Shown: positions 13,601 through 38,872, numbered from the stretch's first letter. The stretch: DNA of 62,006 bases from Parcubacteria group bacterium (GCA_041674205.1 JBAYWF010000007.1:1-62006); one strand, 5' to 3'. The notes: generated from the sequence alone by a model not told the origin. Made by a program: numbers and translations.

Positions 13601-13912
13601 CATAACCATGCTTTTTCCGCCTGAGAATGATTGGGAAGATATTTCATCCACTTCCGGGATCTCTTTGATAGTATCCTCCATCCGGCGGGTAACCAATTCG
13701 AAGACTTCTTGGCTGGTGGCGTTGGGCAGATCAGTGGAAATGATGAAAGCCGGAGCGACGATTTCAGGATTGTATTGTTTTGGCATCAGGATGAAACTGA
13801 CGATGCCCCAGGCGGCTATGATAAGTATGGAAAGGATGCTCAACTCTCTATTTTTCAGGAAGAGACGCGTTATTTTGCCTGAGATTCCGAGTGTATTTTT
13901 TTCAGTGTCCAT
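10679..13912 (-). CDS. RND superfamily efflux transporter (AcrB/HAE-type inner-membrane pump)
   Basis: 1077 aa with a 12-TM, two-large-loop architecture. Typical AcrB-family TM4/TM10 regions (LGLLVDDAIVVVENI, GLAVKNAIIYLEY). Confidence 0.9.
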   Translation of the reverse strand: MDTEKNTLGISGKITRLFLKNRELSILSILIIAAWGIVSFILMPKQYNPEIVAPAFIISTDLPNATSQEVFELVTRRMEDTIKEIPEVDEISSQSFSGGKSMVMVKFYVGSDLEKAKITLTQKLRDNAQLKPAGASDPIVQTMDPEDVPIISIGLTSDKFSEAGLRKAANDIADNLKQVPGTSKIEIKGGRINNLNVDLEAGKLVALKVSPFEVTQAIQSANGTYGVHTLRNNDYNAVLTVDGNISDTQELENIIVRAQGSSVIRVADVATVTYGPGEITDYVRLREKENIDEAKPVVHIAISKLKGTNATTVANAIIAKLDEAKEASIPQEIKTQILRNEGATADEEITNLSIELIKSIAIVGAVLFLILGFRSALIVSLVIPLILFAVFAIGDLFGQTINRITLFALILSLGLLVDDAIVVVENINRYFRMKLGLSKTETVVRAVDEVGSALFMSTLTMILAFVPMAFVTGMMGPYIGPIPFFVPVALAASLLFAVTLNPFFAHLLVKEKAQDEKPNIIGRIIQRVESVYARTIGFLLDNAKSRRIFLAGTALAVIISLSLPLFKIVKFRMLPKADKEQFYLYLDLPNGTAIEKTDTLTVELEKLILPQENIESVESFVGESQVVDFNGLFKGSSFRIQENQATLKINLTKPESRDSTSEEIASKVRTISQDFSNLHPDANIKIVEDPPGPPVQATLFLKVHGENTEKITAIARDLRETITEEKGVVDIDTSIPEQNANATYRINTEKCQQLGIAPSSVNQVLSLELHGMPVGLYNRRDNTLGRESDEEQIIVRLDKEDRKFQEDLNRLTVPSSDGTPIPVSELLVATDSKIESMIYTDERQKTVSLSAEMENRSVVYAVLDIFPKLLDYKLPGAEETKATWTPFGVTYTDMGNGEQYSVMIDGEWKLTLEVFRDLGIVMALVMFLIYFVVAAQTESLVVPLLIMGSIPLSLIGVLPGFAVLGFIKGTYFNATSMIGVIALSGLAVKNAIIYLEYLEPLRRKGLPLKDALVETGRIRLLPIILTSLTAILGSLTIVSDPVWEGLAWAIVFGLTASTLLTLLVFPIFYYLFEHKES

Positions 13913-13925
13913 AATCTAGGTAAAA

Positions 13926-15071
13926 TTAATAAATTATCGGATTGTTGTCGCTGATTTCATAGATGCCTTGCGTGATTATGGTTTCTCCGGGTTGCAAGCC
14001 TGAAATGATTTCCGTTTTGCTTGCGGCCGTCGCTCCCGTGACGACATTTTTTTTGTGAGCTATGTTGTTCTCAACGGTAAAAACGAAAGAATCGCCGAAT
14101 TCATGCAAGATGGAACTTTCCGGGATTGCCAGAGCTTCCTTCGGTTGGGAGAGCGGGAAATCGGCGCAGACATAATCTCCGATTGAAACGGAAGTTTCTG
14201 CGGGATTTTCCATACGCAAGCGGACGATGCCGTTCGGGCTTCCGAAATTCAAAAAAGGGTTTTTAGCGAAAACGAAACCGATAGTTGCAAGCGAGCCTTT
14301 TTTAGTGATGCTGATTTTTTGATTAGGAGAAAGTTTTTCGATTATCGACTTCGGGGCGCTTAATTCGATTTCAATCGTTCCAGGGGCGGAAAGGGAATAG
14401 ACCGGCATTCCTGCGGAGATGAACGATCCGACGGTCGTATGCTTCTGGGTGATCGTGCCGGAGAAAGGAGCGCGGATAGTTTGTTTTTGGGCATAGCTGC
14501 CGGCCACCAGGCTTTGGCCTTCAGCTCCGGAGACCTGGACGCGGGCCGTGGCTATTTGCAGGTCGCGGGCGCGCTTGGCGCTATCGACAGCTTCTTCAGC
14601 CAACTTGACGTCTTCTTTAGTCGCGTCCCCGCTATCGAAACTCGCTTTGCTTTTTTTGAGGGCGACCTTGGCTTCATCGACTTTCTGCTCATAAAGCTTT
14701 TTGGTGTCGGTATAAATCTTGTTTGAATCCTGGGCTACCTTGGATGAGCTGCTGACTTGCGCGTCAAGGATAGAATTGTCCACGATGGCGACTATTTCTC
14801 CGGCGCGGACAGTTTCACCTTCGTTTTTGAAGAGTTTTTGGACGGTGCCGTTTATTTCAGGCATGATTTCCGCCCGTTGGGCGCCGGTGGCAAACCCGCA
14901 ATAGGGGCTTTGGGGCGAAAAATCCGCAAGGCTGATTTCGGCTACGCTTACTTTTTTGGCGGAATCAGTATCGGCGGCATCCGTGTTTTTGGCGGATGGA
15001 CGCATAAATATAAAAGTGGCGGAAACGGCGGAAACGGCCGCGAGCGTCAGGAAGATTTTCTTCTTCGACAT
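13926..15071 (-). CDS. efflux RND periplasmic adaptor (membrane fusion protein, HlyD family)
   Basis: Signal/anchor, lipoyl-like and coiled-coil segments, beta-barrel C-terminus. Lies 14 nt upstream of the RND pump. Confidence 0.85.
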   Translation of the reverse strand: MSKKKIFLTLAAVSAVSATFIFMRPSAKNTDAADTDSAKKVSVAEISLADFSPQSPYCGFATGAQRAEIMPEINGTVQKLFKNEGETVRAGEIVAIVDNSILDAQVSSSSKVAQDSNKIYTDTKKLYEQKVDEAKVALKKSKASFDSGDATKEDVKLAEEAVDSAKRARDLQIATARVQVSGAEGQSLVAGSYAQKQTIRAPFSGTITQKHTTVGSFISAGMPVYSLSAPGTIEIELSAPKSIIEKLSPNQKISITKKGSLATIGFVFAKNPFLNFGSPNGIVRLRMENPAETSVSIGDYVCADFPLSQPKEALAIPESSILHEFGDSFVFTVENNIAHKKNVVTGATAASKTEIISGLQPGETIITQGIYEISDNNPIIY

Positions 15072-20931: not shown

Positions 20932-21002
20932 GCGGGTGTAGTTTAGCGGTAGAACGGAGGTCTCCAAAACCTTTAGTGAGGGTTCGACTCCTTCCACCCG
21001 TG
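20932..21002 (+). tRNA. tRNA-Trp (anticodon CCA)
   Basis: Acceptor GCGGGTG/CACCCGT (G1-U72), anticodon arm GAGGT-CTCCAAA-ACCTT, T-arm GAGGG-TTCGACT-CCTTC. Confidence 0.8.
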
Positions 21003-21010
21003 CAGACATA

Positions 21011-21037
21011 AAAAGAGGCTTTATTTAGCCTTTTTTT
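21011..21037 (+). terminator. weak intrinsic terminator after the tRNA-Trp gene
   Basis: GAGGCT-ttattt-AGCCTT followed by a T7 run. Confidence 0.4.
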
Positions 21038-21108
21038 GTTTGGGGTAGAAGGAGTTAACTCTGAAATGATGATGCATTGACCTTAGGATATATTTATGCT
21101 AATCTATC

Positions 21109-21510
21109 TTGAAGTATCTTAACAACAAATTTAAACTTCTGGAGGATGGAACATTGAAGATACCACAAATAGCATATACTTTCTACAAACAATTGAATGA
21201 GGCTGCTAAGCGTGAAGATGCAAAATTATCATTAGTTAAAAAAATTAAGGAAGAGGAGGATTTGGAGAGGGCATTTTCCTATGTTTTAGTATTTGAATTT
21301 GCTCAGAGGGGTTTTCGTTTGGGGCAATGGGGAAGTCTTTCTGCGAGTCAATTTATGGGTGATAAAATAATAGCCCTTAAACTACTAGGGATAGAAGTCC
21401 CAGATATTCCCAAAGAAGTGATTACTTTCTTGGAGGTGGAGGGCGCACCTATTACAATGGAGTTGCATGAATTTCTTGAAGAGATGAAAAACTATGATTT
21501 AAGGAAGTAA
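21109..21510 (+). CDS. hypothetical protein (first island cassette)
   Basis: ORF with a TTG at 21109. A more likely start is the in-frame TTG at 21154, preceded by GGAGGA and downstream of a TTGACC-17-TAATCT promoter at 21077-21105. Confidence 0.5.
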   Translation: MKYLNNKFKLLEDGTLKIPQIAYTFYKQLNEAAKREDAKLSLVKKIKEEEDLERAFSYVLVFEFAQRGFRLGQWGSLSASQFMGDKIIALKLLGIEVPDIPKEVITFLEVEGAPITMELHEFLEEMKNYDLRK

Positions 21511-21639
21511 ATATGCCAGTGGCGAGCGAATTCATGGATTCATTTATGTTCGCTTGTCGGATGGCGGATTGGGCAAGTTTTAGTTTCGCAACATCGCGAC
21601 CGGGTAGGTTGGGTTTACATAACCCTCCTGCCCGTTTTT

Positions 21640-21769
21640 TTATTTCATCAACGCCATAGCACGCTCTAACCTCACCTCAATCCTATCCCAATTTTCCAAA
21701 ATATTGTTCCTAGTCGTATCCATAGCCCCGTGCATTCCAGAAACATCGGTCGCGAAAGCCGGTGTTTTT
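21640..21769 (-). repeat. cassette-junction module copy A (mini-ORF MHGAMDTTRNNILENWDRIEVRLERAMALMK at 21640-21735, then hairpin type a)
   Basis: Shares the conserved ~95-bp module ending CCGTGCAT (21730-21735). The hairpin ACATCGG...CCGGTGT plus T-run is identical in type to copy G. Confidence 0.8.
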
Positions 21770-21861
21770 GTTTGCCAGAAGCCTCAAGCACGCGTAAGAT
21801 GGAGGTGGGTAGGGAGATACCCACCTAGATAACCATCTCATAAAAAAACTGACAAAAACAG

Positions 21862-22038
21862 ATGGCTATTCGAAAAACGGAAGAAAAAACTGTTCGCAAA
21901 CTGGCGAAGATCGGCAAATAATCGGTCGGTGTGACATTGCCGATTGAAGAAGTGCGGGCGCTGGGGTGGCGGAAAGGTCAGAAGCTTTACATAAAAAGGA
22001 TCAAGTGCGGATTTGAGGTGAGGGATTGGAGAAAATGA
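21862..22038 (+). pseudogene. AbrB/MazE/SpoVT-family antitoxin-like gene with in-frame TAA
   Basis: MAIRKTEEKTVRKLAKIGK*SVGVTLPIEEVRALGWRKGQKLYIKRIKCGFEVRDWRK. The stop at 21919-21921 interrupts the conserved (G)xSxxVTLP swapped-hairpin motif. Confidence 0.6.
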
Positions 22039-22173
22039 AGGTACCTGACCCCTTCATCTCCCTTCATCCGTGCAAATAGTTAAGAAACGCTTGAATAAGG
22101 CGTTTTTTCCGTTTTTGCTTGCTTTTTAAATCAAAGTAAGTTTATACTAATATGAAATAATAATATCAATAAG

Positions 22174-23136
22174 ATGGCTGAATTTAATCTGGAAAAATAC
22201 ATTTCTCAGATAACCAGAAAACTTAAGAATGATATAAAAAATGAGGCAATTTTGATTGCAGTTTCTGGCGGTGTTGATTCCTCAGTTTCTGCCGCATTAT
22301 TAATTAAGGCAGGATTGAAAGTTAAATTGCTCTTTATAAACACAGGTTTTTTGCGTGATAATGAAAATAATGAAGTCCTTGATTCTTTAAAGAGGGCAAA
22401 TTTTGATGTTGAATATATGGACGCAAGCAGAAAGTTTTATTCAAGATTGAAAAATAAAACTTCTTCAAGCGAAAAGAGAGAAGAATTCAGGAAATTATAT
22501 TTTGAAATATTATCAAAATATGCGGTTAGAGATAATATAACCTATATAGCGCAAGGAACCCAATTTCATAACGGAACTGCAAAGATATATCATAATTGTC
22601 CAACTGAAAAATTTTTGAAAGAGGGATTTAAAAATATAGAGCCGGTAGCGGGATTAAAAAAGGATGAGATAAGATTGCTTGCTGAGAAATTAGGATTGCC
22701 AAGAAGTATAGCACAAAGAATATCATTTCCAGGTCCTGGACTACTGATTAGATTTGGAGGAAAATTTTCTCATGAGAAATTAAAGTTGATACGAGAAGCA
22801 ACTAGCATCGTAGAAAAATTTGTTATTGATAATTTTTCAGAGTTCAAAAATTGCTACCAAATATTTCCTTATTTAAGCTTGGATAACACTGTAACTTTTG
22901 TTGATCAAAACGGAAATGGAAGTAATGGGTTTGTTCTTTTGCTTAGAGTCATTCAGGTTGAAAAAAATGGTAAGGAATTGGCGTACAAACCTTTTTTTAT
23001 TAAACCAAAAACTCAAAATAAACTTGTTGATGAAATTATGTCTAAGTTGCCGATTTCAAGAGTTTGTTTTGATGCGACTTGTAAATATGGTTTTGGTGAT
23101 AAAGTGATGCCGGGAGGCACTATCGAATATGCCTAA
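22174..23136 (+). CDS. PP-loop ATP pyrophosphatase, GMP synthase ATP-PPase-subunit-like
   Basis: SGGVDSS PP-loop at the N-terminus. The C-terminal end (KVMPGGTIEYA) resembles the GMP synthase dimerisation tail. Codon usage is very AT-rich. Confidence 0.7.
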   Translation: MAEFNLEKYISQITRKLKNDIKNEAILIAVSGGVDSSVSAALLIKAGLKVKLLFINTGFLRDNENNEVLDSLKRANFDVEYMDASRKFYSRLKNKTSSSEKREEFRKLYFEILSKYAVRDNITYIAQGTQFHNGTAKIYHNCPTEKFLKEGFKNIEPVAGLKKDEIRLLAEKLGLPRSIAQRISFPGPGLLIRFGGKFSHEKLKLIREATSIVEKFVIDNFSEFKNCYQIFPYLSLDNTVTFVDQNGNGSNGFVLLLRVIQVEKNGKELAYKPFFIKPKTQNKLVDEIMSKLPISRVCFDATCKYGFGDKVMPGGTIEYA

Positions 23137-23140
23137 ATTT

Positions 23141-23275
23141 CTAGATTTGTTTTAACAGTGTATTTGCACGCTCTAATCTAATCTCAATCACATCCCAATT
23201 TTCCAGTATATTCTCTCGAAGCGCATACCCAAGCCCGTGCATGCTAAACAGAGCTCAGTCGAGCTCTGTTTTTGT
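23141..23275 (-). repeat. cassette-junction module copy B (mini-ORF MHGLGYALRENILENWDVIEIRLERANTLLKQI at 23141-23242, then hairpin type b)
   Basis: Conserved module ending CCGTGCAT (23237-23242). Hairpin AAACAGAGCTC-agtc-GAGCTCTGTTT plus T-run. Confidence 0.8.
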
Positions 23276-23363
23276 ATAGAGAAATGAGTCTTCGAACAAA
23301 AAATTATGGATACTTACCATATTTTGTGTTAAAATAGGCATAAATTAAAGTAAATCTAAAAAT

Positions 23364-23858
23364 ATGGAGAAGGAAGTCATTTGTAGCGATATCGAAGGAA
23401 ATGAATTTAATGTGCCAGTAAACGAATTATCTTTTCGCCCTTCTGTTTACGCTCTAATTATTGAAAACGGAAAAATCCTACTTTCAAAACAGTGGGACGG
23501 ATATGATTTTCCAGGAGGAGGAATGGATCTTGGTGAGACTATAGAAGAAGCTTTAAAAAGAGAGGCAATGGGGGAAACTGGTATTGAAGTTCATGTTGGC
23601 AAAGTCATTGCTTGTGAAAATTCATTTTTCAAATTGCCATTTTCAGGTACGCATGTCCACTCGATCCTTATGTATTTTTTATGTAAAAATATTGGAGGAA
23701 TATTAACAACAGATAACTTTACTGAGAACGAAAAGAAATATGCTGATATGCCAGAGTGGGTAGATTTGAATAATATTGTTAAAATTAAGTTTTGTAACTC
23801 GGTTGATAGCGTGAGAATTATTAAAGAAGCAATAAAATTGCAAGCAACGAAGGATTAA
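23364..23858 (+). CDS. NUDIX hydrolase
   Basis: Nudix box GGGMDLGETIEEALKREAMGETGI. Confidence 0.8.
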   Translation: MEKEVICSDIEGNEFNVPVNELSFRPSVYALIIENGKILLSKQWDGYDFPGGGMDLGETIEEALKREAMGETGIEVHVGKVIACENSFFKLPFSGTHVHSILMYFLCKNIGGILTTDNFTENEKKYADMPEWVDLNNIVKIKFCNSVDSVRIIKEAIKLQATKD

Positions 23859-23861
23859 GAT

Positions 23862-23997
23862 CTAAATTTGCTTCATCAAAGCCATCGCACGCTCCAACCT
23901 GATCCCAATCACATCCCAATTTTCCAGCATATTCTCTTGAAGCGCATACTCAAACCTGTGCAGTTTAGCAAAAAAGCGCTTGAAAAAGGCGTTTTTT
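23862..23997 (-). repeat. cassette-junction module copy C (mini-ORF with CTG in place of ATG: LHRFEYALQENMLENWDVIGIRLERAMALMKQI, then hairpin type c)
   Basis: Module ends CTGTGCAG (23958-23963). Hairpin AAAGCGCTT-gaaaaa-GGCGTTTTTT resembles the orphan junction hairpin at 22083-22112. Confidence 0.75.
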
Positions 23998-24087
23998 AGT
24001 TTTAGGGTTGACTTTTGTTTTGTGGATGCTAGATTTCTTATAGTTCTTATTCAAGCGTTTTTAATAAAAAAGCAATCCAGGAGGGAA

Positions 24088-24510
24088 ATGGATATGCCGG
24101 AAAATGACAAGTTGTCTTTAGCGAGGGAGGCGTATGCGAACATGAGAAGGGGTCTAGGAAATGAGGCTTCTCTTGAGGAGGCCTTGGACAACCTGAATGG
24201 CCCTAGGGCGGAGGGCTTAATGGAGTATCTATTGCTGATGGATGGCGGTCGCATAGTCCGTCTGGATGGCAGGCTGGTAATTTTTACCAGCGAGACCAAG
24301 GGGCGGCTGTTTCATACTTTCAGCCGTGCAGGAAGTGATCTGGTGCGGGCTACAAAAGCAGAATTGCTCAAGCAGATAAATCCCGATCTGGAAGTCGTGG
24401 TTGATCCCGGAAGCTCTCCGACAACTTCTCCGGGATCAATGATGGCTCTTTCTGAACTTCCTGCGATGAATGCTTGCATTCATCGCGCGCTTAACATCAA
24501 TCTGAGATAG
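24088..24510 (+). CDS. hypothetical protein
   Basis: The in-frame ATG at 24088 is preceded by AGGAGGG. The upstream part of ORF 23980-24510 overlaps the promoter-like region and is unlikely to be coding. Confidence 0.55.
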   Translation: MDMPENDKLSLAREAYANMRRGLGNEASLEEALDNLNGPRAEGLMEYLLLMDGGRIVRLDGRLVIFTSETKGRLFHTFSRAGSDLVRATKAELLKQINPDLEVVVDPGSSPTTSPGSMMALSELPAMNACIHRALNINLR

Positions 24511-24516
24511 GGGAGG

Positions 24517-24732
24517 ATGAGTATGAATTATCCATTATTGCTTTGTATTTCTTCTATATTATTGGCTGGGAGTGGCGGTCTGAATTTTGGCCTTGCTCCG
24601 TCAGTGGAACAGGAGGGCGGATGGATGATAGCGGCCCTTAGTGGGTTCTTTATCATCGCGGGCTTCTTCGGCATAATGCTGGCTTTCCAATCTTTGTTTA
24701 AGAAAGAAGAAGGTTTGGCGGATATTTCCTGA
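24517..24732 (+). CDS. small membrane protein (2 TM helices)
   Basis: 71-aa ORF with RBS GGGAGG 7 nt upstream. Two hydrophobic helices. Followed by a terminator. Confidence 0.55.
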   Translation: MSMNYPLLLCISSILLAGSGGLNFGLAPSVEQEGGWMIAALSGFFIIAGFFGIMLAFQSLFKKEEGLADIS

Positions 24733-24797
24733 CCTGCCCCAAGCTCGATTGCAATACGAAGGCCAGTGATTTCCAATAGGTTATCGCTGGTCTTTTT

Positions 24798-24924
24798 TTA
24801 TTGCATCAGTGCCATCGCGCGCTCCAATCTAATCCCGATTGTATCCCAATTTTCAATGATATTTGTCCGAATACTATCAAGCGTTCCGTGCATACTAAAC
24901 AGAGCTCAGTTGAGCTCTGTTTTT
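24798..24924 (-). repeat. cassette-junction module copy D (mini-ORF MHGTLDSIRTNIIENWDTIGIRLERAMALMQ at 24798-24893, then hairpin type b)
   Basis: Module ends CCGTGCAT (24888-24893). The hairpin and following promoter-like stretch are homologous to those after copy B. Confidence 0.8.
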
Positions 24925-25010
24925 ATAAAGAGAAATAAAATCTGTGGATATTTGCGATATTTGTGTTAAGCTAGGCATAATAATAAAAAAATAATTTGTA
25001 AAGAAATATT

Positions 25011-25613
25011 ATGAAAAATATTCAGGATAAACTCGATGCGTTTAAAGATATTGTTATAAAGAATATTCAAGGCAATGAAAATTTTCCATACAGGGAATGG
25101 TTTATTGATGATCACTTGATGATCGTTGAACGTATAGCCTTGGAGCTTTGCGACATTTATCCAGATGCCGATAGAAACCTGGTTGAGGCTCTTGTTTGGT
25201 TTCACGATTTTGGAAAACCAATTGACATGGGTAATGAATATGAGACAACTAAAACAAGAGGGGTTGAAGCTATGCGATCTATTGGTTTTGAGGAAAAATT
25301 TATCGAACGTGTTCTTGAACTGTGGGTAACGATGGAAAAAGAACAAGAGATTGATATTTCCAAAGAGGCTATCGAAGTACAGATTATCTGTTCAGCAGAT
25401 GGAGCTTCACATTTCACGGGGTTGTTCTATTCAAGCTATTTTCGCGATGAACGAGGCGAAAGCCTGGAATCGATTAAAAATCGGATTAGGGCGAAGATAA
25501 GAAAAGATTGGGAGAAGAAAATGGTGCTACCAGAAATAAAAAAAACATTTGAAAAACGATATATTAGAGCTTTGGAAATCGTTGGCGAATATCCGAATAA
25601 TTTTATTGTCTAA
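25011..25613 (+). CDS. HD-domain phosphohydrolase
   Basis: H...HD motif (ALVWFHDFGKP) and a downstream D (SADGASHF). Confidence 0.7.
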   Translation: MKNIQDKLDAFKDIVIKNIQGNENFPYREWFIDDHLMIVERIALELCDIYPDADRNLVEALVWFHDFGKPIDMGNEYETTKTRGVEAMRSIGFEEKFIERVLELWVTMEKEQEIDISKEAIEVQIICSADGASHFTGLFYSSYFRDERGESLESIKNRIRAKIRKDWEKKMVLPEIKKTFEKRYIRALEIVGEYPNNFIV

Positions 25614-25667
25614 AATTAATCTAATTACAAAGCTTTGAATCATATAGTGAGCAGCGCCGTGGGGTAA

Positions 25668-25790
25668 TTATATTTTCAAATCAGGAATATAGATATATCC
25701 TTTTGCATTCATAAAAATAGTTCTAACGTCCATGACTACCCCGTGCATGAAAAAATGAGGCTGAAAAAAGCCTCATTTTTGATAGGGGCA
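25668..25790 (-). repeat. cassette-junction module copy E, divergent (mini-ORF MHGVVMDVRTIFMNAKGYIYIPDLKI at 25668-25748, then hairpin type e)
   Basis: Only the CCCCGTGCAT end (25743-25748) and the first ~12 codons resemble copy A. Hairpin AATGAGGCT-gaaaaa-AGCCTCATTTTT. Confidence 0.55.
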
Positions 25791-26042
25791 AATTCATCTT
25801 CGGACACATTTCGATTTTTTTAATAAATTCATAGCATTTTTAGTGTGATGGTGATTTGTTCTTGACCAAGCGTAAAAACGTTGACATCCATTAAATCAAA
25901 TGCTAGGATTGCATATTCTTGATATATTACTAAAATAGTTCCTTGATACAAATAATTGTTATGCAAAAGGCCGCCATTGGCGGTAAACCAGGGTATGCGT
26001 TTTATAAAGCGTGCGCCCAAAACAAAAAAGGAGGTATGCATC

Positions 26043-26981
26043 ATGAAAAAAGATGTGCGCCAGCAAGAAGCTGAAGCAAAAGAAGAAATCGGACGTCGTC
26101 AGGGAGAGCAGTTGATTACAGCCCTGGAAAAGGCTGGGATAACCAAAAGACTCGGGAGCTTGATAGTGGAAAAAGAAGAGTATGCGAGATCCATTGTCCA
26201 TCTGCTTAGTTCTGGATCCCCAAAGATTTTCACAATGGACGATGAATCTTTGAGGAAAGTTTATTGGCATTGTTTCACGGGCATAAAAAGCCCGGAGGAG
26301 CAGGTTGATATTCTTTCCAAAGCATTCAAGGAGTTGGCAGACATACAGCTCAAACCTGGAAATGTTCTCGAAATGGCTGGTCGTATGTTTCCTTATTATC
26401 CCAAGCCGGCTGGTCCAGAAGGAATTCTTATTGTTCCCAAACTATCCTTCGTGATTAAGTGGGGAACTGGTGACTATTGCCTTGGATCAAAGAGGGTTCA
26501 GCGGGTAGTCGAAAGCACTCTCGACTTCTTGCAGTGGAATGTGGAGCCACAAGACAATTTTAATGAGAAGCGCGTGAGGCTTAATGAGAAAACAGAGAAG
26601 TCGCTTAAAAAGGTCGATCTGGAATTTAGTGGCGACTTGGTGGCTATACCCTTTCAGTTTGGAGCGTTACATAGAAGTTGCCCAAACTATGTTGTGGATA
26701 TGAGACTGCAGTGGGACGAATTCAAGTTGCCGACTTATGCAGGCGCTTGTGCGCTTATTACGCATCCAAATCGTCTTCAAATGAAAGGGTGTATCTCTCG
26801 TGACTCCTTGCATCTGGGATGTTCAGGGGATGAATTTTCTAGCAAGGGAGATGGGAATTTTGATGGGTATTGCTTTTACTACATAGGACCTGAAAGGGGC
26901 TATGATGCGAACCTTGGAGTCAGAATGGACGAGGTCGATAAATACCTTCCCAAGTTTGCCCCTATGACCGGATGGTGTTAA
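26043..26981 (+). CDS. hypothetical protein
   Basis: The ATG at 26043 is preceded by AAGGAGG. A TTGACA-17-TAGGAT promoter lies at about 25875-25903. Cys-rich C-terminal half. No family recognised. Confidence 0.6.
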   Translation: MKKDVRQQEAEAKEEIGRRQGEQLITALEKAGITKRLGSLIVEKEEYARSIVHLLSSGSPKIFTMDDESLRKVYWHCFTGIKSPEEQVDILSKAFKELADIQLKPGNVLEMAGRMFPYYPKPAGPEGILIVPKLSFVIKWGTGDYCLGSKRVQRVVESTLDFLQWNVEPQDNFNEKRVRLNEKTEKSLKKVDLEFSGDLVAIPFQFGALHRSCPNYVVDMRLQWDEFKLPTYAGACALITHPNRLQMKGCISRDSLHLGCSGDEFSSKGDGNFDGYCFYYIGPERGYDANLGVRMDEVDKYLPKFAPMTGWC

Positions 26982-27036
26982 GTCGTAAGTAATATTTCAA
27001 AGACAGGAGAGCCGAGGCTTTCTCTCCTGTCTTTTT

Positions 27037-27164
27037 TTATTTCATCAAAGCCATCGCTCGCTCTGATCTGATTTCAACTTTATCCAAATTCTCAAGGATA
27101 TTTGTCCGAATACTATCAAGCGTTCTGTGCATTCAAGAAGCAAGGCTTATTCGAGCCTTGCTTT
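27037..27164 (-). repeat. cassette-junction module copy F (mini-ORF MHRTLDSIRTNILENLDKVEIRSERAMALMK at 27037-27132, then hairpin type f)
   Basis: Module ends TCTGTGCAT (27127-27132). Hairpin GCAAGGCT-tattcg-AGCCTTGC plus T-run is the same type as in copy H. Confidence 0.8.
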
Positions 27165-27237
27165 TGCGTAGGGGTGGTGGGAATTAGAGCTGAATAATGA
27201 GATTGACATGGTTTCAGCAATGATATAAAATTTAAAT

Positions 27238-27621
27238 ATGAACAAGGACAATGCGACAAAACAAGAAGTAACCTTGGGTGACTTAGCAGCGATGGTGCGA
27301 GATGGTTTTGTCAATTCAGAAAAGGCGACGGACAAAAAAATCGATGACTTAGCAGCGATGGTGCGAGATGGCTTTGTCAATTCAGAAAAGGCGACGGACA
27401 AAAAAATCGATGACTTAGCGGCGATGGTACAAGAAGGTTTTTTGAGTGTGGAAAAAAGAATGGATGGTCTTGAGTCAAATATGAATGAGATTAAAACCGA
27501 TCTTTCGATTGTGAAATCCGATGTGTGCGAGGTCAAGGCTGAGCTGAATAAAAAAGTGGACAAGTTTGAACACAAAGACTTGGAATATCGTGTGGAAAAA
27601 TTAGAAAAGAAATTCGCCTAG
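27238..27621 (+). CDS. coiled-coil protein with 22-aa tandem repeats
   Basis: DLAAMVRDGFVNSEKATDKKID repeated about 2.5 times (66-bp DNA period, 27280-27440). TTGACA-17-TATAAA promoter upstream. Confidence 0.6.
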   Translation: MNKDNATKQEVTLGDLAAMVRDGFVNSEKATDKKIDDLAAMVRDGFVNSEKATDKKIDDLAAMVQEGFLSVEKRMDGLESNMNEIKTDLSIVKSDVCEVKAELNKKVDKFEHKDLEYRVEKLEKKFA

Positions 27622-27665
27622 AAATTCACGAAGTATTTAAAAAATGCGGAGGTAGTCCGCTTTTT

Positions 27666-27832
27666 TTATTTGCTCATTAAGGCTCTAGTTCGCTCCAATC
27701 TAATCCCAATCACATCCCAATTTTCCAGTATATTCTCTCGAAGCGCATACCCAATTTTTCAAAATATTGTTCCAGGTCATATCCATGACCTCGTGCATTC
27801 CAGAAACATCGGCCGCGAAAGCCGGTGTTTTT
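27666..27832 (-). repeat. cassette-junction module copy G, chimeric (B-type 3' part fused out of frame to an A-type 5' part), then hairpin type a
   Basis: 27666-27750 matches copies B/H. 27751-27798 matches copy A (ATATTGTTCC...GTGCAT). The downstream 27799-27940 is homologous to 21736-21860 but lacks the AbrB-like gene. Confidence 0.75.
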
Positions 27833-28012
27833 GTTTGCCAGAAGCTTCAAGCAAGCGTAAAATGTAGGTGGTAAGAGGATATCCATCTATAAACACTCTT
27901 CCTCATAAAAAACTAACAATAAAAAAGGTACCTGACCCAAATAACTTTTTTTCAAAGGCGGATTTGAAAGCATAGATTGGAGTGGATAAATATTATATTA
28001 TAATGAAAAAAT

Positions 28013-28462
28013 ATGGCAGAGGAATTTGAATTTTTTATGATTGGGCAGAAAGCCGCTCTTATCAGGGATGGAAAATGCTTGATCATTGAAATGGCAAGTA
28101 GGCCTGGTTTTTGGGAGCTGCCTGGCGGAAGAATAAACAAAGGCGAACTCAGAGAACAAGCTTTACGGAGAGAAATAAAAGAAGAGCTTGGATTGGATGA
28201 TTTTGAAATTTTGGGCGTGGTTGACTATGATGTCTGGCATCACAAAGGTGATGGCACGCCGTTTTGCGCTACTGTGCATTTGATAAAAAATGATTTTGAC
28301 AAGATTATTTTAAGCGATGAAAGTCTGCGATATGAATGGATCGCAGAAAATGAAATAGATAATTACAAATATTTTTGGGAAGCTTCACCGAAATTTATAA
28401 AAAATGGATTCAAATCGTATGGATTTATGAAAAAAGATCGGGAAATAGAGAAAGATGCCTGA
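28013..28462 (+). CDS. NUDIX hydrolase
   Basis: Nudix box GGRINKGELREQALRREIKEELGL. Confidence 0.8.
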   Translation: MAEEFEFFMIGQKAALIRDGKCLIIEMASRPGFWELPGGRINKGELREQALRREIKEELGLDDFEILGVVDYDVWHHKGDGTPFCATVHLIKNDFDKIILSDESLRYEWIAENEIDNYKYFWEASPKFIKNGFKSYGFMKKDREIEKDA

Positions 28463-28496
28463 CTCCTTTTTTCCATAATTATAATAGCCAAAAGTG

Positions 28497-28928
28497 ATGA
28501 AGCTAGAGAGGGCAACAATTGAAGATATCCAGGTGCTTTTGGAAATTGAAAAAACAACGGTGGGATTGAAGGTATATTCTGGATATTTCAATGAGAAAGA
28601 AATCGAGGGGTGGATTAAAAATGATGTCGTCTATCTTATCAAAAATGGGGAAAAAATTGCCGGCAGTATTTCATATGAAATAAAAGGCAAGGATCATGCA
28701 TATATAAGCGGATTAGTGATAAAGCCGGAATTTCAAAAACAGGGACTGGCCAAACAGGCGATGGAGTCGCTTTTTGGGGAATTGAAAGGCTTCGAAAAAA
28801 TAAGTCTCGTAGTCCACCCCGATAATCACGCAGCCAGGTTGTATGAATCATTTGGATTTGTGATTGAATCGCGCAAGGAAAACTATTTCGGTGATGGCGA
28901 GCCTCGCGTAGTTATGGTCAAACGCTAA
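28497..28928 (+). CDS. GNAT family N-acetyltransferase
   Basis: Acetyl-CoA motif A (VIKPEFQKQGLAKQAM) and YESFGF. The ATG at 28497 is preferred to the GTG at 28494. Confidence 0.75.
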   Translation: MKLERATIEDIQVLLEIEKTTVGLKVYSGYFNEKEIEGWIKNDVVYLIKNGEKIAGSISYEIKGKDHAYISGLVIKPEFQKQGLAKQAMESLFGELKGFEKISLVVHPDNHAARLYESFGFVIESRKENYFGDGEPRVVMVKR

Positions 28929-29065
28929 AGTTTAACGCTATTCATCAGAGCCATCGCACGCTCCAATCTAATCTCAATCACATCCCAATTTTCCAGTATA
29001 TTCTCTCGAAGCGCATACCCAAGCCCGTGCTGATTAAAACAAGGCTTATTCGAGCCTTGTTTTTG
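28925..29065 (-). repeat. cassette-junction module copy H (B-type mini-ORF lacking ATG; core GTGCTG), then hairpin type f
   Basis: Nearly identical to copy B across the module. It overlaps the GNAT stop codon. The hairpin AACAAGGCT-tattcg-AGCCTTGTT plus T-run matches copy F. Confidence 0.8.
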
Positions 29066-29243
29066 TATGAGTGCTTGACAAAAAAATGACTATGACAGAT
29101 AGTATTCTTAGAGTTCTAATTGGAAAAGTAGCCACACTTCTTATTAGGTCTTTGAAAATTATCATCAGGTAGTTTTCAGATCTTGAGATACTTATCTCAG
29201 GGAAATGTAGTTCTTATTATTTTTGCAAGAGGAGGTATAAATC

Positions 29244-34584: not shown

Positions 34585-34856
34585 TTTTTTAAAAAATTAA
34601 TAATTATAACTATTTCGTAATACACTGGCCGGCGGTTTATATTTCGTGTGATTTTTAACCGGCAGCTGTTTCTGATCATGCTGTCCCGGTGGCACATACT
34701 GAAAAAGGCCGGGAAAAATTTAAAAAAACGGAACAATGGAGAGTCAGAATCGGAACCGGCTGGCCATATTGACAAAACATTCCAAATGTGACAAGATGCA
34801 CAGTTGGCTGGTGAGGAGGATAAACCTTCTTTTACAATATAACAGAGGTGCGGAAT

Positions 34857-35738
34857 ATGGTTAAAGACGTATCGTCAGGTTGCTGTATGGAGTTAGATGA
34901 ATTGAAAAGCTTTCTTGATAACGCCCATGATTTGTTCCAGGGCGTAGATGGGGAAGGAAAAATAGTATATGTCAACAAGGCTTGGCTTGACAGCCTTGAA
35001 TATGATAAAGAAGAAGTCATGGGTAAAAATATTTTCACGTTTATCGCTCCGGACTCATTGGATCATTGCTTGAAAAAATTCGAGCATTTGATGAATGGCG
35101 GGAAACTTGTGAATCTGGAGGTGACGTTTCTGACGAAATCCGGAGGAAGGATTATTGCAGAGGGAAACGTGGTCCTGATTCACAGGGCGGACGGATCATT
35201 TTTTACCCGCGGAATCTTCCGCGACATAACGGAGCGGCGGGAATTGGAAAAAAATATTTTCCATCTCGCTACCCATGACGCATTGACGGACTTGATGAAT
35301 CGTCACGCATTCATGGATTGTTTGGCTAAGGATATGGAATATGCCAAACGTTATGGACAAAAAATAGCCATCGTTTATTTCGACCTGGATAGGTTCAAGC
35401 AGATCAATGATAGTTTTGGCCATGCTGCCGGGGACGCTGTCCTGGTGGCGGTGGCAAACAGGCTGAAGGCCTATATGCGCGGCAGCGATTATGCCGTTCG
35501 TTTCGGTGGCGATGAATTCGGGCTGGCGATAAAGTCTATCAGTAGCCAGGAAATATCCGTGGTGGTAAATAGGCTGACCGAAGCCGTTACGGAACCGATC
35601 ATTTTCAGCGGTCACACGCTGACCGTGGGTATGAGCGTCGGTCTGGCCATCTATCCGGATGACGCTCAAAAGGCGGAGGAATTGATAAGATTGGCCGATG
35701 CCAAGATGTATGGGAATAAGGCACGGCAAAGGGATTGA
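34857..35738 (+). CDS. PAS-domain diguanylate cyclase (GGDEF)
   Basis: PAS N-terminus and a GGDEF domain with RFGGDEFG. Confidence 0.85.
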   Translation: MVKDVSSGCCMELDELKSFLDNAHDLFQGVDGEGKIVYVNKAWLDSLEYDKEEVMGKNIFTFIAPDSLDHCLKKFEHLMNGGKLVNLEVTFLTKSGGRIIAEGNVVLIHRADGSFFTRGIFRDITERRELEKNIFHLATHDALTDLMNRHAFMDCLAKDMEYAKRYGQKIAIVYFDLDRFKQINDSFGHAAGDAVLVAVANRLKAYMRGSDYAVRFGGDEFGLAIKSISSQEISVVVNRLTEAVTEPIIFSGHTLTVGMSVGLAIYPDDAQKAEELIRLADAKMYGNKARQRD

Positions 35739-35750
35739 GCATGCGCTCGG

Positions 35751-35785
35751 AGGGGTTGTAAAAAATTACAACCCTTTTTTTTGTA
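35751..35785 (+). terminator. intrinsic terminator
   Basis: GGGTTGTA-aaaaat-TACAACCC followed by a T8 run. Confidence 0.6.
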
Positions 35786-35991
35786 TTTTTTATCGTGGCG
35801 CATGGATTCGGATATGCCTTGACCGGAATGGTACCAGGCGAAAACGCGTCAATCAGCTTGTGAAACGATTGTGGATTGAAGCTGGAATCTTGAAAAACGG
35901 CATAAACGACGCTATCGCCTGAAAATGTAGAATAAAAATAAAAATAAATTGTAATTAGATGCAGTGGCGCATAAATGATTGATAAAAAATT

Positions 35992-36423
35992 ATGATACAA
36001 AAAGCATATTTGGCGATGGGTTGTTTTTGGGGGCCGGATGAATTCTTCTCCGATTTGCCGGGTGTTTTCAGGACACGCGTCGGATATAGCGGAGGAGGGA
36101 AAGCCAATCCGACGTATAACGATTTAGATGGGCATTCCGAGACTGTCGAAATCGAGTTTGACCCTGGAAAAATGCCGTACGCGGAGATTCTAAAATATTT
36201 TTTCAGCGAGCAGGATCCCGGAAGCCGGGAAGAAACACGGTATCGCTCAGCTATTTTTTATTTGGATGATGCGCAAAAAGAGATCGCCGAAGCGGCCAAA
36301 AAAGAAGCGGAAAAAGAATATGGTCCGATTGCGACCTCTATCGAGCCTTTTGGAAAATTTTATCCAGCCGAAGGATACCATCAAAAATATCTGCAAAAAT
36401 TAAAAGCTGAAAAAATGCTATGA
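35992..36423 (+). CDS. msrA: peptide-methionine (S)-S-oxide reductase
   Basis: GCFWG active-site motif and GYHQKY. Confidence 0.9.
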   Translation: MIQKAYLAMGCFWGPDEFFSDLPGVFRTRVGYSGGGKANPTYNDLDGHSETVEIEFDPGKMPYAEILKYFFSEQDPGSREETRYRSAIFYLDDAQKEIAEAAKKEAEKEYGPIATSIEPFGKFYPAEGYHQKYLQKLKAEKML

Positions 36424-36830
36424 TTGAGAAAATAAACAAAAGTTCGGACGAATGGAAAAAAATCCTGACTCCGGATGTTTATGCGATTACGCGTGGCAAC
36501 GGAACCGAACCGGCTTTCAAAAATGCCTATTGGAACAATGAAAAAGAAGGATTATATAAATGCTCCAATTGCCAGCTTGTACTTTTCAGTTCCGAACATA
36601 AATTCGATTCCGGAACCGGCTGGCCGAGTTTTTGGAGGTCCTATAAAGAAGAAAATGTGGTTTTCCATACCGATCGTTCACAGGGCATGGTTCGGAAAGA
36701 AGCCCGTTGCGCCCGTTGCGGTTCGCACTTGGGGCATGTTTTTGAAGATGGTCCGGTGCCGACAGGTTTGCGGTTCTGTATGAATTCCGCCGCGCTTATT
36801 TTTGAACAGGATCTACCCGATGAAATTTGA
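36420..36830 (+). CDS. msrB: peptide-methionine (R)-S-oxide reductase
   Basis: CxxC...CxxC zinc site, GHVF and RFCMNS motifs. The start overlaps the msrA stop (ATGA). Confidence 0.9.
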   Translation: MIEKINKSSDEWKKILTPDVYAITRGNGTEPAFKNAYWNNEKEGLYKCSNCQLVLFSSEHKFDSGTGWPSFWRSYKEENVVFHTDRSQGMVRKEARCARCGSHLGHVFEDGPVPTGLRFCMNSAALIFEQDLPDEI

Positions 36831-36970
36831 AGCAGGTCCATCCGAGGTTTTGACGCAAACAGCTAGAATGAAGCCATTTGAAGTCCGGCCGTTTTGATGT
36901 TAATGTTTTTTTAATATACGTCTGCTAAACTGAAGTTGTACAGGCAAATAATCCGTTATCTAATAAAAAT

Positions 36971-37636
36971 ATGCGCATTTTAGTCGTAGAAGACGAACCG
37001 GCAATCGTGAGAATAATCAAAAACGGCTTGCAACAAAGCGGGCATATAGTCGATACCGTGGAAGATGGAGGTGAAGCGAAGAGCCGCGTGGAGATTTATG
37101 ACTACAATGTCATAATTTTGGACATAATGCTGCCGGGAGCTGACGGGCTCGAGATATGTAGCTATATCAGGAAATTGGAGCTGGATTCTAAAATAATAAT
37201 GCTTACCGCCAGGGATGATATCGATAACAAAGTTTCCTGCTTGAACGCGGGCGCTGACGATTATATGACCAAGCCTTTTTCCATCGTGGAACTGGAAGCC
37301 CGCGTCCGGGCGGTCGGCCGTCGGGAACGGATCGCTTGCGGGACGAAATTGGAAATGAAAACTTTGAAAATCGACCCGCTTACCAAAGCGGTTTTCGTGA
37401 AAGGCAAACCCATCAAGACATCCTTGACCGAATACCGCCTTTTGGAATATCTTTTGCGCCACCGGAATGAAATCTGCACCCGGACGATGCTGGGCGAGAA
37501 CGTTTGGGGCGACAAGGAGCATGTTTCCAACGTGATAGACGTCACTATCAGCAAATTGCGGAAAAAACTGAAAAAAGCCAACGACGATATGGACATAATC
37601 CACACGATTCCGAAATCCGGGTACAGGGTCTATTAA
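36971..37636 (+). CDS. OmpR-family response regulator
   Basis: Receiver domain (VEDE...ILDIMLPGADG...K) plus a C-terminal winged-helix trans_reg_C domain. Confidence 0.9.
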   Translation: MRILVVEDEPAIVRIIKNGLQQSGHIVDTVEDGGEAKSRVEIYDYNVIILDIMLPGADGLEICSYIRKLELDSKIIMLTARDDIDNKVSCLNAGADDYMTKPFSIVELEARVRAVGRRERIACGTKLEMKTLKIDPLTKAVFVKGKPIKTSLTEYRLLEYLLRHRNEICTRTMLGENVWGDKEHVSNVIDVTISKLRKKLKKANDDMDIIHTIPKSGYRVY

Positions 37637-37650
37637 AAGTTTCAATTAAA

Positions 37651-38808: not shown

Positions 38809-38872
38809 ACATGGAAGTTTAAAAGAGGCGTATGGATCCTAAATGATCTTTAAAAACCAATGAGGTGATGAG

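What the first reader, a model, noticed from the sequence alone, without database searches (positions are those of the whole stretch)
21640..29032. The junction module reads as a ~31-aa antisense mini-ORF under apparent protein-level selection
The reverse complement of each module is an ORF starting at the ATGCAC core and ending at a stop in the same place. A is MHGAMDTTRNNILENWDRIEVRLERAMALMK and B is MHGLGYALRENILENWDVIEIRLERANTLLKQI. D is MHGTLDSIRTNIIENWDTIGIRLERAMALMQ and F is MHRTLDSIRTNILENLDKVEIRSERAMALMK. Copies differ preferentially at third codon positions. Arg9 is AGG/CGA/CGG/AGA, Arg22 is AGG/AGA, Arg25 is CGT/CGC/CGA, Ala26 is GCT/GCA/GCG, and Ile/Leu codons are ATT/ATA/ATC and TTG/CTG/CTT. 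This pattern is not expected for a purely DNA- or RNA-level signal. No SD sequence precedes the ATG, and a hairpin abuts it. Three copies (C, G, H) have lost the start or frame. It may be a tiny helical protein, a relic of a donor gene's terminus used as a recombination target, or a translated regulatory element.
Basis: seen in the sequence. Interest (0 to 1): 0.7.

Follow-up and report, generated by a model that had tools for sequence, protein, structure and literature searches.

The report
Orphaned tail of an integrase gene
The repeated ~31-codon "mini-ORF" is not a gene of its own: it is the last ~30 codons of a large serine recombinase (integrase) gene, cut off when mobile elements inserted at the end of the tRNA-Trp gene, and it now marks the joints of an 8-kb stack of accessory-gene cassettes.

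Summary
Eight same-orientation copies of a ~96-nt module lie between 21.6 and 29.0 kb. Their minus-strand frame evolves like protein: pN/pS is 0.37 in the window and 0.38 over 31 copies from about 30 other Patescibacteria contigs.

It is not a self-standing ORF.
- Only 15 of 36 copies have ATG, and ten full-length copies have no usable start codon.
- Conservation begins at GCACGG. This is the reverse complement of CCCGTGC, the 3' end of the tRNA-Trp gene that heads the array.
- Large serine recombinase (LSR) genes in relatives sit directly against tRNA-Trp. In 5 of 5 contexts their ORF runs through the same hairpin and into "MHG" in the same frame.
- In two complete elements of about 10.8 and 10.9 kb, the module lies at the far end on the LSR strand.
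- Three LSRs carry a module-type tail contiguously (hhalign E 3e-6; copy E is 87.5% identical).

So the module is the LSR C-terminal tail plus one arm of an attachment site (attP) that lies inside the gene. Integration splits the gene.

The window has no LSR and holds LSR-less cassettes. The closest known analogues are Mx8 IntP and the archaeal SSV "suicidal" integrases, but those are tyrosine recombinases. I rate this a new variant of a known kind.

The parts
20932..21003 (+). tRNA-Trp (CCA) gene. Its 3' end CCCGTGC (20997-21003) is the attB-like core that heads the cassette array.
   Evidence: ARAGORN and Rfam. The same ...CCCGTGC|A end followed by a hairpin is found in 8 related loci.
21010..21038 (.). 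Hairpin with flanking A and T runs immediately after tRNA-Trp. It has the same architecture as the hairpin after every module.
21640..21735 (-). Module A, MHGAMDTTRNNILENWDRIEVRLERAMALMK*. Core GTGC at 21730-21733.
21741..21770 (.). Hairpin plus T-run after module A.
23141..23242 (-). Module B, MHGLGYALRENILENWDVIEIRLERANTLLKQI*.
   Evidence: tblastn to the P0043 tail.
23246..23277 (.). Hairpin (11-bp stem) plus T-run after module B. It is the only stable fold in this junction.
   Evidence: (family D5).
23862..23963 (-). Module C, with CTG in place of ATG: LHRFEYALQENMLENWDVIGIRLERAMALMKQI*.
23970..23997 (.). Hairpin after module C.
24798..24893 (-). Module D, MHGTLDSIRTNIIENWDTIGIRLERAMALMQ*.
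24897..24928 (.). Hairpin after module D.
25668..25748 (-). Module E, a variant tail type: MHGVVMDVRTIFMNAKGYIYIPDLKI*. It is followed by a hairpin at 25750-25780.
   Evidence: 87.5% identical over 24 aa to the contiguous C-terminus of recombinase P0012, E 1e-7.
27037..27132 (-). Module F, MHRTLDSIRTNILENLDKVEIRSERAMALMK*. It is followed by a hairpin at 27138-27169.
27666..27798 (-). Module G, a composite. A B-type body (27666-27752) is fused at TTGGG to a second, A-type N-half (27750-27798), so the frame is broken. A hairpin follows at about 27804-27835.
28925..29032 (-). Module H, with CAG in place of ATG: QHGLGYALRENILENWDVIEIRLERAMALMNSVKL*. It is followed by a hairpin at 29037-29068. This is the last junction of the array.
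   Evidence: Homology of the GNAT cassette to other genomes ends exactly at this core.
21109..28928 (+). Cargo genes of the eight cassettes, all on the + strand and each ending just before a module. They are: unknown (21109-21510), PP-loop ATPase (22174-23136), NUDIX (23364-23858), unknown plus small membrane protein (24094-24732), HD (25011-25613), unknown (25956-26981), repeat protein (27238-27621), and NUDIX plus GNAT (28013-28928).
   Evidence: ORFs, Pfam.

Best explanation
Each module is the detached 3' end of a large serine recombinase (LSR) gene, made of the last ~30 codons and the stop. At the same time it is one arm of that recombinase's attachment site (attP).

In this LSR clade of Patescibacteria the crossover site lies inside the recombinase ORF. 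On the tRNA strand the core is CCCGTGC. In the recombinase frame it reads x-His-Gly.

In the free, circular element the ORF runs in this order: catalytic and DNA-binding domains, a ~45-aa linker that contains a hairpin, the 'MHG' core, and then a ~30-aa tail that ends in an amphipathic helix.

Integration into the 3' end of tRNA-Trp splits the gene.
- At the tRNA side (attL) the recombinase now ends in a few residues translated from the antisense of the tRNA. The in-ORF hairpin comes to lie just downstream of the tRNA, where it looks like a terminator.
- At the far side (attR) the orphan tail lies antisense, directly behind the last cargo gene.

Repeated insertion next to the tRNA, followed by loss of the recombinase genes (or capture of recombinase-less cassettes in trans), leaves the array seen in the window. 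That array is tRNA-Trp followed by eight cargo cassettes, each ending in an orphan tail, the core and a hairpin.

The protein-like substitution pattern is that of a real coding sequence, the recombinase tail. It is not that of a 31-aa gene.

Shown: the homology, the frame, the position and the element ends. Inferred: the order of accretion, the exact crossover dinucleotide, what the tail does, and whether orphan copies are still selected.
For: 1. The core equals the tRNA end. tRNA-Trp ends ...CCCGTGC|A and is followed by a hairpin. Every module ends the same way, in the window and in 8 related loci.

2. In L033, L038, L039, L040 and L041 an LSR gene (Resolvase + Recombinase + Zn_ribbon_recom) abuts tRNA-Trp at the same S2-Tsf-PSP1-TPR-tRNA-L33 locus as the window. 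In 5 of 5 the ORF crosses the core in the MHG frame and stops inside the tRNA antisense.

3. In L033 and L040 a module lies about 10.8 and 10.9 kb away, on the LSR strand. In-silico excision therefore joins ...VSIMHG to ...NILENWD...* in frame.

4. Contiguous tails exist.
- P0043 ends ...LTYEGILGNWELVEAKLERTRALLAQR*. hhalign of the module profile against it gives probability 88% and E 3e-6, aligned to its last 25 residues. hmmsearch gives E 4e-6. tblastn of the tail hits modules A, B, C, G and H.
- P0054 ends ...ILENRELAEIETDRIKALLAQR*.
- P0012 ends with the E-type tail of window copy E.

5. Of 114 LSR homologues, about 95 end in tRNA-antisense tails or stop no more than 4 aa after the core, as expected for integrated copies.

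6. There is no start-codon conservation, and ten intact copies lack any start. Conservation begins at GCAC.

7. Shared cassettes break at the core. GNAT ends at +0 to +9, Fic starts at -6/-7, and NUDIX starts at +5.

8. An AlphaFold model of P0043 shows a well-folded body, a low-confidence linker at 500-549, and a terminal helix at 550-566 with pLDDT of about 75-79.
Against: - The window has no LSR gene (Pfam; tblastn). For this locus the link rests on relatives.
- No LSR of the closest (MHG) subclade was found with the helical module contiguous. The contiguous examples are 54-55% identical subclades (P0043, P0054) or carry the E-type tail (P0012). A profile search of 5.8 billion proteins with the module found only 9 short ORFs.
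- LSRs are not expected to recombine attP with attL, so how tandem arrays form is unexplained.
- DNA similarity between LSR 3' ends and the sequence to the right of the window's modules is weak.
- Two cassette breakpoints fall 28 nt inside the module rather than at the core.
Confidence: 0.85

Rival explanations
1. The module is an independent, translated ~31-aa helical micro-protein gene, present once per cassette.
For: The open frame has a conserved stop position, pN/pS of about 0.37, and a heptad-like hydrophobic pattern. Gene callers have occasionally called short ORFs that end in it.
Against: - ATG is present in only 15 of 36 copies. CAG, TGG, TCG and ACG variants have no upstream in-frame start.
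- The first two bases of the 'start codon' lie outside the conserved block.
- No promoter-like sequence is conserved, and a hairpin with a T-run lies 2-10 nt upstream. In types A, D, F and G another hairpin lies downstream.
- The N-terminal third is often frameshifted, replaced, or interrupted by a GC-rich insertion.
- The sequence is contiguous with 550-aa recombinase ORFs.
Confidence: 0.04
2. The module is purely a DNA-level recombination site, an attC-like or arm-type binding region. On this view its codon-like variation is incidental, for example a product of transition bias and hexamer periodicity.
For: - The N-half (28 nt next to the core) shows no coding signal (pN/pS 0.66) and assorts independently. 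This is consistent with a protein-binding half-site.
- The opposite-strand wobble-sharing frame scores almost as well (0.53).
- In-window statistics alone are weak.
Against: - Codons 11-31 keep Leu, Arg and Ala through family-switching and four-fold synonymous changes, with no indel in 44 copies.
- The same stretch is translated as the end of intact LSR ORFs and is predicted to be a helix.
- An LSR half-site needs only about 25 bp, not 96.
Confidence: 0.07
3. The array is a classical integron, and the modules are attC sites.
For: There is a same-orientation array of small accessory genes (GNAT, NUDIX, Fic in relatives), each followed by a conserved ~100-nt element.
Against: - No IntI or other tyrosine recombinase was found in 62 kb.
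- The module does not fold into a long imperfect hairpin. Only the adjacent 11-bp terminator stem is stable on either strand.
- By inspection there are no R''/R' boxes.
- Cassettes carry their own promoter-like and terminator-like signals.
Confidence: 0.02

Closest known systems
Myxophage Mx8 IntP (attP inside the int gene; integration changes the C-terminus of the integrase)
   Same: The integrase ORF extends across attP, so integration replaces the protein's C-terminal end. [quoted passage not shown] From my own knowledge, Mx8 integrates into a tRNA gene.
   Different: Mx8 IntP is a tyrosine recombinase of a temperate phage of a myxobacterium. Here the enzyme is a large serine recombinase on ~11-kb cargo islands in Patescibacteria, and the orphan tails accumulate as a multi-cassette array.
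SSV-type (type I) 'suicidal' integrases of archaeal viruses and plasmids
   Same: attP lies within the integrase ORF. Integration splits the gene into two parts that flank the element. The att sequence is translated as part of the protein. Tandem or hybrid events can rebuild the gene (PMC7253208). From my own knowledge, the targets are tRNA genes.
   Different: Those are tyrosine recombinases, described as 'so far restricted to archaea' (PMC7253208). Their split yields two inactive pseudogenes. Here only the last ~30 of ~545 codons are removed, and all recognisable catalytic and DNA-binding domains stay intact.
tRNA-gene-targeting genomic islands and their tandem arrays (the Islander signature)
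   Same: An intact tRNA gene lies at one end, a repeat of its 3' end lies at the other, cargo lies between, and the integrase gene lies next to the tRNA (seen in relatives).
   Different: [quoted passage not shown] The displaced tRNA fragment here is only the 7-8-nt core. The long repeat is integrase coding sequence, not tRNA.
Integron cassette arrays
   Same: The layout is functionally similar: a fixed entry point followed by many single-gene accessory cassettes, each ending in a family-specific recombination element. The same cassette is found with different neighbours in different genomes.
   Different: There is no IntI, no folded attC, and no common Pc promoter. The junction element is a fragment of a recombinase gene.

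Membership tests
Integrative element of a large serine recombinase (attP x attB) | An LSR gene (Resolvase + Recombinase + Zn-ribbon domains) lies on the element, next to an att site. | tested here: not met
   There is none in the 62-kb window (Pfam; tblastn). The feature is met in related loci L033 and L038-L041 at the same tRNA-Trp locus. The window therefore holds LSR-less remnants or cassettes, not a complete element.
Integrative element of a large serine recombinase (attP x attB) | The element is bounded by att sites that share a short common core with the target. | tested here: met
   CCCGTGC occurs at the tRNA-Trp end and at the end of every module. Cassette homology breaks at the core.
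Integrative element of a large serine recombinase (attP x attB) | Strand exchange at a central dinucleotide, catalysed by the LSR. | not testable with these tools
   This needs excision-junction reads or a recombination assay.
Integrases whose ORF spans attP (Mx8 IntP, SSV 'suicidal' type) | The att core lies inside the integrase ORF and is translated. | tested here: met
   The ORF crosses the core in one frame in 5 of 5 genomic contexts, and in all listed close homologues. Tails are contiguous in P0043, P0054 and P0012.
Integrases whose ORF spans attP (Mx8 IntP, SSV 'suicidal' type) | Integration leaves the two gene parts at opposite ends of the element. | tested here: met
   This holds for the L033 (~10.8 kb) and L040 (~10.9 kb) elements.
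Integrases whose ORF spans attP (Mx8 IntP, SSV 'suicidal' type) | Tyrosine-recombinase fold and chemistry. | tested here: not met
   Pfam finds Resolvase, Recombinase and Zn_ribbon_recom, which define the serine family. The system works like these integrases but is not a member of those families.
Integron | An IntI tyrosine recombinase next to attI. | tested here: not met
   No recombinase of any kind was found in the window.
Integron | attC folds as a long imperfect hairpin with R''/L''/L'/R' boxes. | tested here: not met
   ssDNA folds of both strands of two junctions show only the 11-bp terminator stem.
Independent small-protein gene (sORF) | A conserved start codon and translation or transcription signals. 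| tested here: not met
   ATG occurs in 15 of 36 copies, and ten intact copies have no start. No conserved promoter was seen in the upstream sequences (by inspection), and a consensus scan found nothing above background.
   There was no Pfam hit at E <= 1 for four peptides.

The most novel reading that the evidence does not exclude
Patescibacteria may run an integron-like gene-capture platform powered by a serine recombinase rather than a tyrosine recombinase. On this reading, tRNA-Trp acts as the fixed entry site. Recombinase-less single-gene cassettes that end in a recombinase-tail/attP-like site are inserted and shuffled in trans. The recombinase's own C-terminal helix is swapped on and off by integration, serving as a built-in directionality or 'state' switch.
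Probability: 0.3. Interest if true: 0.8.

Novelty: new variant of a known kind. Interest (0 to 1): 0.6.

Why it matters
1. It resolves an apparent paradox: protein-level selection on an ORF that has no start codon, no promoter and a terminator at its head. It is also a caution for small-ORF hunting, because dN/dS-type signals can come from detached gene ends at mobile-element junctions.

2. It points to a clade of large serine recombinases that target a tRNA gene and carry attP inside their own ORF. The papers I could search describe these traits only for tyrosine integrases (Mx8, and SSV 'so far restricted to archaea'). [quoted passage not shown]

3. It identifies a conserved hotspot (tRNA-Trp) where the small genomes of Patescibacteria stack accessory and defence-type genes, with sequence landmarks that make such islands easy to find.

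4. An LSR with a short natural attB in a universal gene, and a possible built-in state switch, could interest genome engineers.

Tried and rejected
- Integron/attC. No recombinase is nearby, and the module does not fold (the first fold attempt failed on length).
- Known RNA families. Rfam found only the four tRNAs.
- Pfam on the peptides. There was no hit.
- A parent protein found directly with a module profile. Only 9 short hypothetical ORFs came back, with unrelated N-terminal parts. I first read this as 'no parent gene'. The parent was found only after I noticed the tRNA-end identity and the recombinase in L033.
- + strand coding, or a C-terminal extension of the cargo proteins. The wobble-sharing + frame is open, but it has no start, it runs through the hairpin, it needs radical replacements where the minus frame is silent, and cassette types A, D, F and G have a terminator in front of it.
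- Diversity-generating retroelement (DGR) variable repeat, tmRNA-like tag template, antisense 'sponge', and type I toxin. I considered these from the anatomy and dropped them. There is no reverse transcriptase or adenine-specific variation, no tRNA-like domain, no target gene, and the peptide is hydrophilic.
- A promoter for the minus strand. Nothing is conserved. The ~30-nt conserved segment upstream of the hairpin instead corresponds in position, and loosely in sequence, to the recombinase's ...NLRTRDFAL... codons. Direct blastn support is weak.
- The third large protein search, with the P0043 C-terminal 114 aa, returned nothing and was wasted.
- Literature searches for integrons or serine recombinases in Patescibacteria gave nothing specific.


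Full report
WHAT IS THERE

Between 21.6 and 29.0 kb the window holds a family of ~96-nt direct repeats, all in one orientation. There are seven full copies and one partial copy, with nhmmer E-values from 1e-10 to 5e-42.

Each copy sits immediately 3' of a + strand gene. These genes are a PP-loop ATPase, a NUDIX, an unknown protein, a small membrane protein, an HD protein, another unknown, a repeat protein, and a NUDIX plus GNAT pair. On the + strand, 2-10 nt after each copy, comes a GC-rich hairpin with flanking A and T runs.

G is a hybrid of two copies joined at a TTGGG microhomology. A ninth junction, copy E at 25668-25748, has a different tail: MHGVVMDVRTIFMNAKGYIYIPDLKI.

IS THE CODING SIGNAL REAL?

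Within the window the signal is suggestive only. Variable columns by codon position are 18/13/22, and pN/pS is 0.37 against 0.52-2.2 in the other frames.

I recovered more copies with one degenerate-pattern scan of genome contigs and one of metagenome contigs, then ran nhmmer on the fetched loci. This gave 46 unique copies, 36 of them near full length. The genome-contig hits carry Patescibacteria, Parcubacteria or Moranbacteria titles, apart from one unnamed bacterium, one uncultured bacterium and one bin labelled Bdellovibrionales; the metagenome contigs carry no taxonomy.

The frame has no stop in 31 non-redundant full-length copies, and pN/pS is 0.38. In codons 26-31, which the search patterns did not constrain, pN/pS is 0.36. 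Leu29 uses TTG, TTA, CTG, CTA and CTT. Arg9 uses CGA, CGG, CGT, AGG and AGA. Ala26 and Ala28 use three or four codons each.

Two caveats apply. Codons 2-10 show no coding signal (0.66). The + strand frame that shares the wobble positions is almost as open (3 stops, 0.53). The minus frame wins on silent first-position Leu/Arg changes and on milder replacements. So protein-level constraint is real, but it concerns codons ~11-31.

WHY IT IS NOT A MINI-GENE

- Codon 1 is ATG in only 15 of 36 copies. The rest are CAG, CTG, ACG, TTG, TGG, GTG, TCG and others. Ten otherwise intact copies have no in-frame start anywhere upstream.
- In a junction alignment, conservation starts abruptly at G-CAC-GG. The two bases before it vary freely.
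- Upstream lies a hairpin with a T-run, terminator-like in both directions. In the A, D, F and G type another hairpin follows the stop. No promoter-like sequence is conserved.
- Pfam finds nothing for the peptides.
- A profile search of 5.8 billion proteins found only nine short 'hypothetical' ORFs. Their only common part is the module at their C-terminus.

THE KEY OBSERVATION

The array starts right after tRNA-Trp (20932-21003). The tRNA ends ...CCACCCGTGC|A and is followed by a spacer, a hairpin and a T-run. CCCGTGCAT is the reverse complement of ATGCACGGG.

So the 'start codon plus His-Gly' of the module is a copy of the tRNA acceptor end. Everything to the right of a module looks like what lies to the right of the tRNA. 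The same holds in eight related loci. Several of these share the window's synteny of S2, Tsf, PSP1, a TPR protein, tRNAs, L33 and tRNA-Trp.

THE PARENT GENE

In L033, directly after tRNA-Trp and on the opposite strand, lies a 542-aa large serine recombinase (LSR) with Resolvase, Recombinase and Zn_ribbon_recom domains. Its ORF runs on through the hairpin, which codes ...TKTAPSRETVS... It then crosses the core as I-M-H-G and stops 20 codons into the antisense of the tRNA.

About 10.8 kb further on, on the recombinase's strand, lies a module: QHGGLDDLRTNILENWDKVEIRLERAMVLLKQN*.

Homologues of this LSR are numerous, with 3162 hits at E < 1e-30. The hits that carry a name are from Moranbacteria or Parcubacteria. 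Their C-termini are conserved up to ...NLRTRDFALxETKTAPxRETVSxMHG and then diverge.
- About 66 of 114 continue with tRNA-antisense peptides, such as WKELNPRQSFWRAPFYR or [VW][RQ]ESNPR...
- About 29 stop within four residues. For example, MHGM* is the antisense of the other tRNA-Trp variant, CCTACATCCCGTGC.
- Three continue into a module-type tail.

The three contiguous cases are as follows.
- P0043 ends ...LTYEGILGNWELVEAKLERTRALLAQR*. hhalign of the module profile against it gives probability 88% and E 3e-6 over its last 25 residues. hmmsearch gives E 4e-6. tblastn hits modules A, B, C, G and H.
- P0054 ends ...ILENRELAEIETDRIKALLAQR*. In its contig a convergent gene overlaps its end by 26 nt, exactly the module/cargo arrangement.
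- P0012 ends MHGVVNDVRTIFMNKKEYIYIPDLT*, the E-type tail of the window (87.5% identity, E 1e-7).

Four further genomic contexts (L038-L041) show the LSR ORF ending inside tRNA-Trp at the same locus, always in the MHG frame. In L040 the far-end module, MHGAMDRTRNNILENWDRIDVRLQRAQALLRQI*, lies 9.3 kb upstream of the LSR start on the same strand.

An AlphaFold model of P0043 has a confident body, a disordered linker at 500-549, and a terminal helix at 550-566.

INTERPRETATION

attP lies inside the recombinase gene, about 30 codons before its stop. Integration at the tRNA-Trp 3' end splits the gene.

At attL the recombinase acquires a short tail encoded by the tRNA antisense. Its in-ORF hairpin comes to lie behind the tRNA. 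At attR the true tail is orphaned behind the last cargo gene.

The module therefore carries the substitution pattern of a genuine coding sequence without being an ORF in its present place. The N-half, 28 nt next to the core, behaves like a DNA site. It comes in discrete types, shows no coding signal, and assorts independently. It is probably the P-arm half-site (inference).

The window itself has no LSR. It holds eight LSR-less cassettes.

Shared cassettes in other genomes break at the core. GNAT ends at +0 to +9, Fic starts at -6/-7, and NUDIX starts at +5. The Fic cassette sits directly beside tRNA-Trp without an LSR in two genomes. This suggests cassette-wise movement. Whether that is trans-mobilisation or decay after serial integration cannot be decided here. 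Two breakpoints at -28 point to additional homologous exchange within the conserved ILENWD-coding stretch.

COMPARISON WITH KNOWN SYSTEMS

Integrase ORFs that span attP are known for Mx8 IntP, where integration alters the C-terminus, and for SSV-type 'suicidal' integrases. Both are tyrosine recombinases, and the latter are described as restricted to archaea (PMC4383910, PMC7253208).

The Islander paper states that serine integrases are not known to target tRNA genes (PMC4383910, 2014). I found nothing later that contradicts this, but my search was limited to the held library.

The system works like those integrases but fails their membership test on recombinase family. It is not an integron: it has no IntI and no folding attC. 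I therefore rate it a new variant of a known kind.

OPEN POINTS

- How do arrays grow, given that LSRs normally do not use attL as a target?
- What does the tail helix do? A switch that reports integration state or sets direction is my speculation.
- Why are orphan tails so well preserved? The options are recent origin, a role in trans-mobilisation, or homogenisation.
- What is the status of the E-type tail?

Noticed in passing
window 25668-25748 (-); L035 2351-2428; L028 148-219, 2596-2667, 3949-4015: There is a second, unrelated-looking tail or module family: xHG[VL]xx[DE]VRTIFM[NQ]..E..YIP... It is conserved at the amino-acid level. It occurs once in the window (copy E), is contiguous with recombinase P0012, and occurs three times in L028.
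   Followed up: partly
L024 ~2000-2080, L011 ~1311-1400, L012 (two copies), L005 ~2100; proteins P0005 and P0007: A GC-rich palindromic insertion of roughly 80 nt (GCCTGCCTGCC...GGCAGGGTAGGCAGGG) replaces or interrupts the N-half of modules in several genomes. It looks like a small MITE that targets this site.
   Followed up: no
window 27279-27455: Three tandem 66-nt repeats (98% and 78% identical to the reference copy) lie inside ORF 27238-27621. They give a 22-aa protein repeat, DDLAAMVRDGFVNSEKATDKKI.
   Followed up: no
window 21687-21808 vs 27750-27871; 21931-22038; 27952-27982: The sequence to the right of module A is repeated at 90% identity to the right of module G. Next to it is a 35-aa ORF, MTLPIEEVRALGWRKGQKLYIKRI..., which looks like an AbrB/SpoVT-type antitoxin fragment. 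That is my reading and was not tested. A weaker copy lies at 27952-27982.
   Followed up: no
L039 3397-4206; L009 1247-1858; L024 3790-4422; L027 6465-7103; L033 1212-1802: Relatives carry an extra gene inside the tRNA-Thr/Tyr/Thr cluster upstream of tRNA-Trp. In L039 it is a LAGLIDADG_3 homing endonuclease. In the others it is a ~200-aa ORF with no Pfam hit. The window lacks it.
   Followed up: partly
LSR homologues P0035-P0129: The tripeptide at the predicted crossover differs between recombinase subclades (MHG, VSG, MRG, LLG, RLG, KLG). The tails that follow still look like tRNA antisense (..RDSNP..). This suggests that related LSRs target other tRNA genes in the same way.
   Followed up: no
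window 46845-47258 (+) and 47356-47748 (-): Two convergent paralogous S-adenosylmethionine decarboxylase (AdoMet_dc) genes lie next to each other.
   Followed up: no
window 10679-15071, 34848-40198: The window encodes an AcrB/HlyD efflux pair, a PAS-GGDEF protein and two-component systems. I would not have expected this gene content from a typical minimal Patescibacteria genome. The synteny and the repeat family nevertheless tie the window to Moranbacteria and Parcubacteria MAGs.
   Followed up: no
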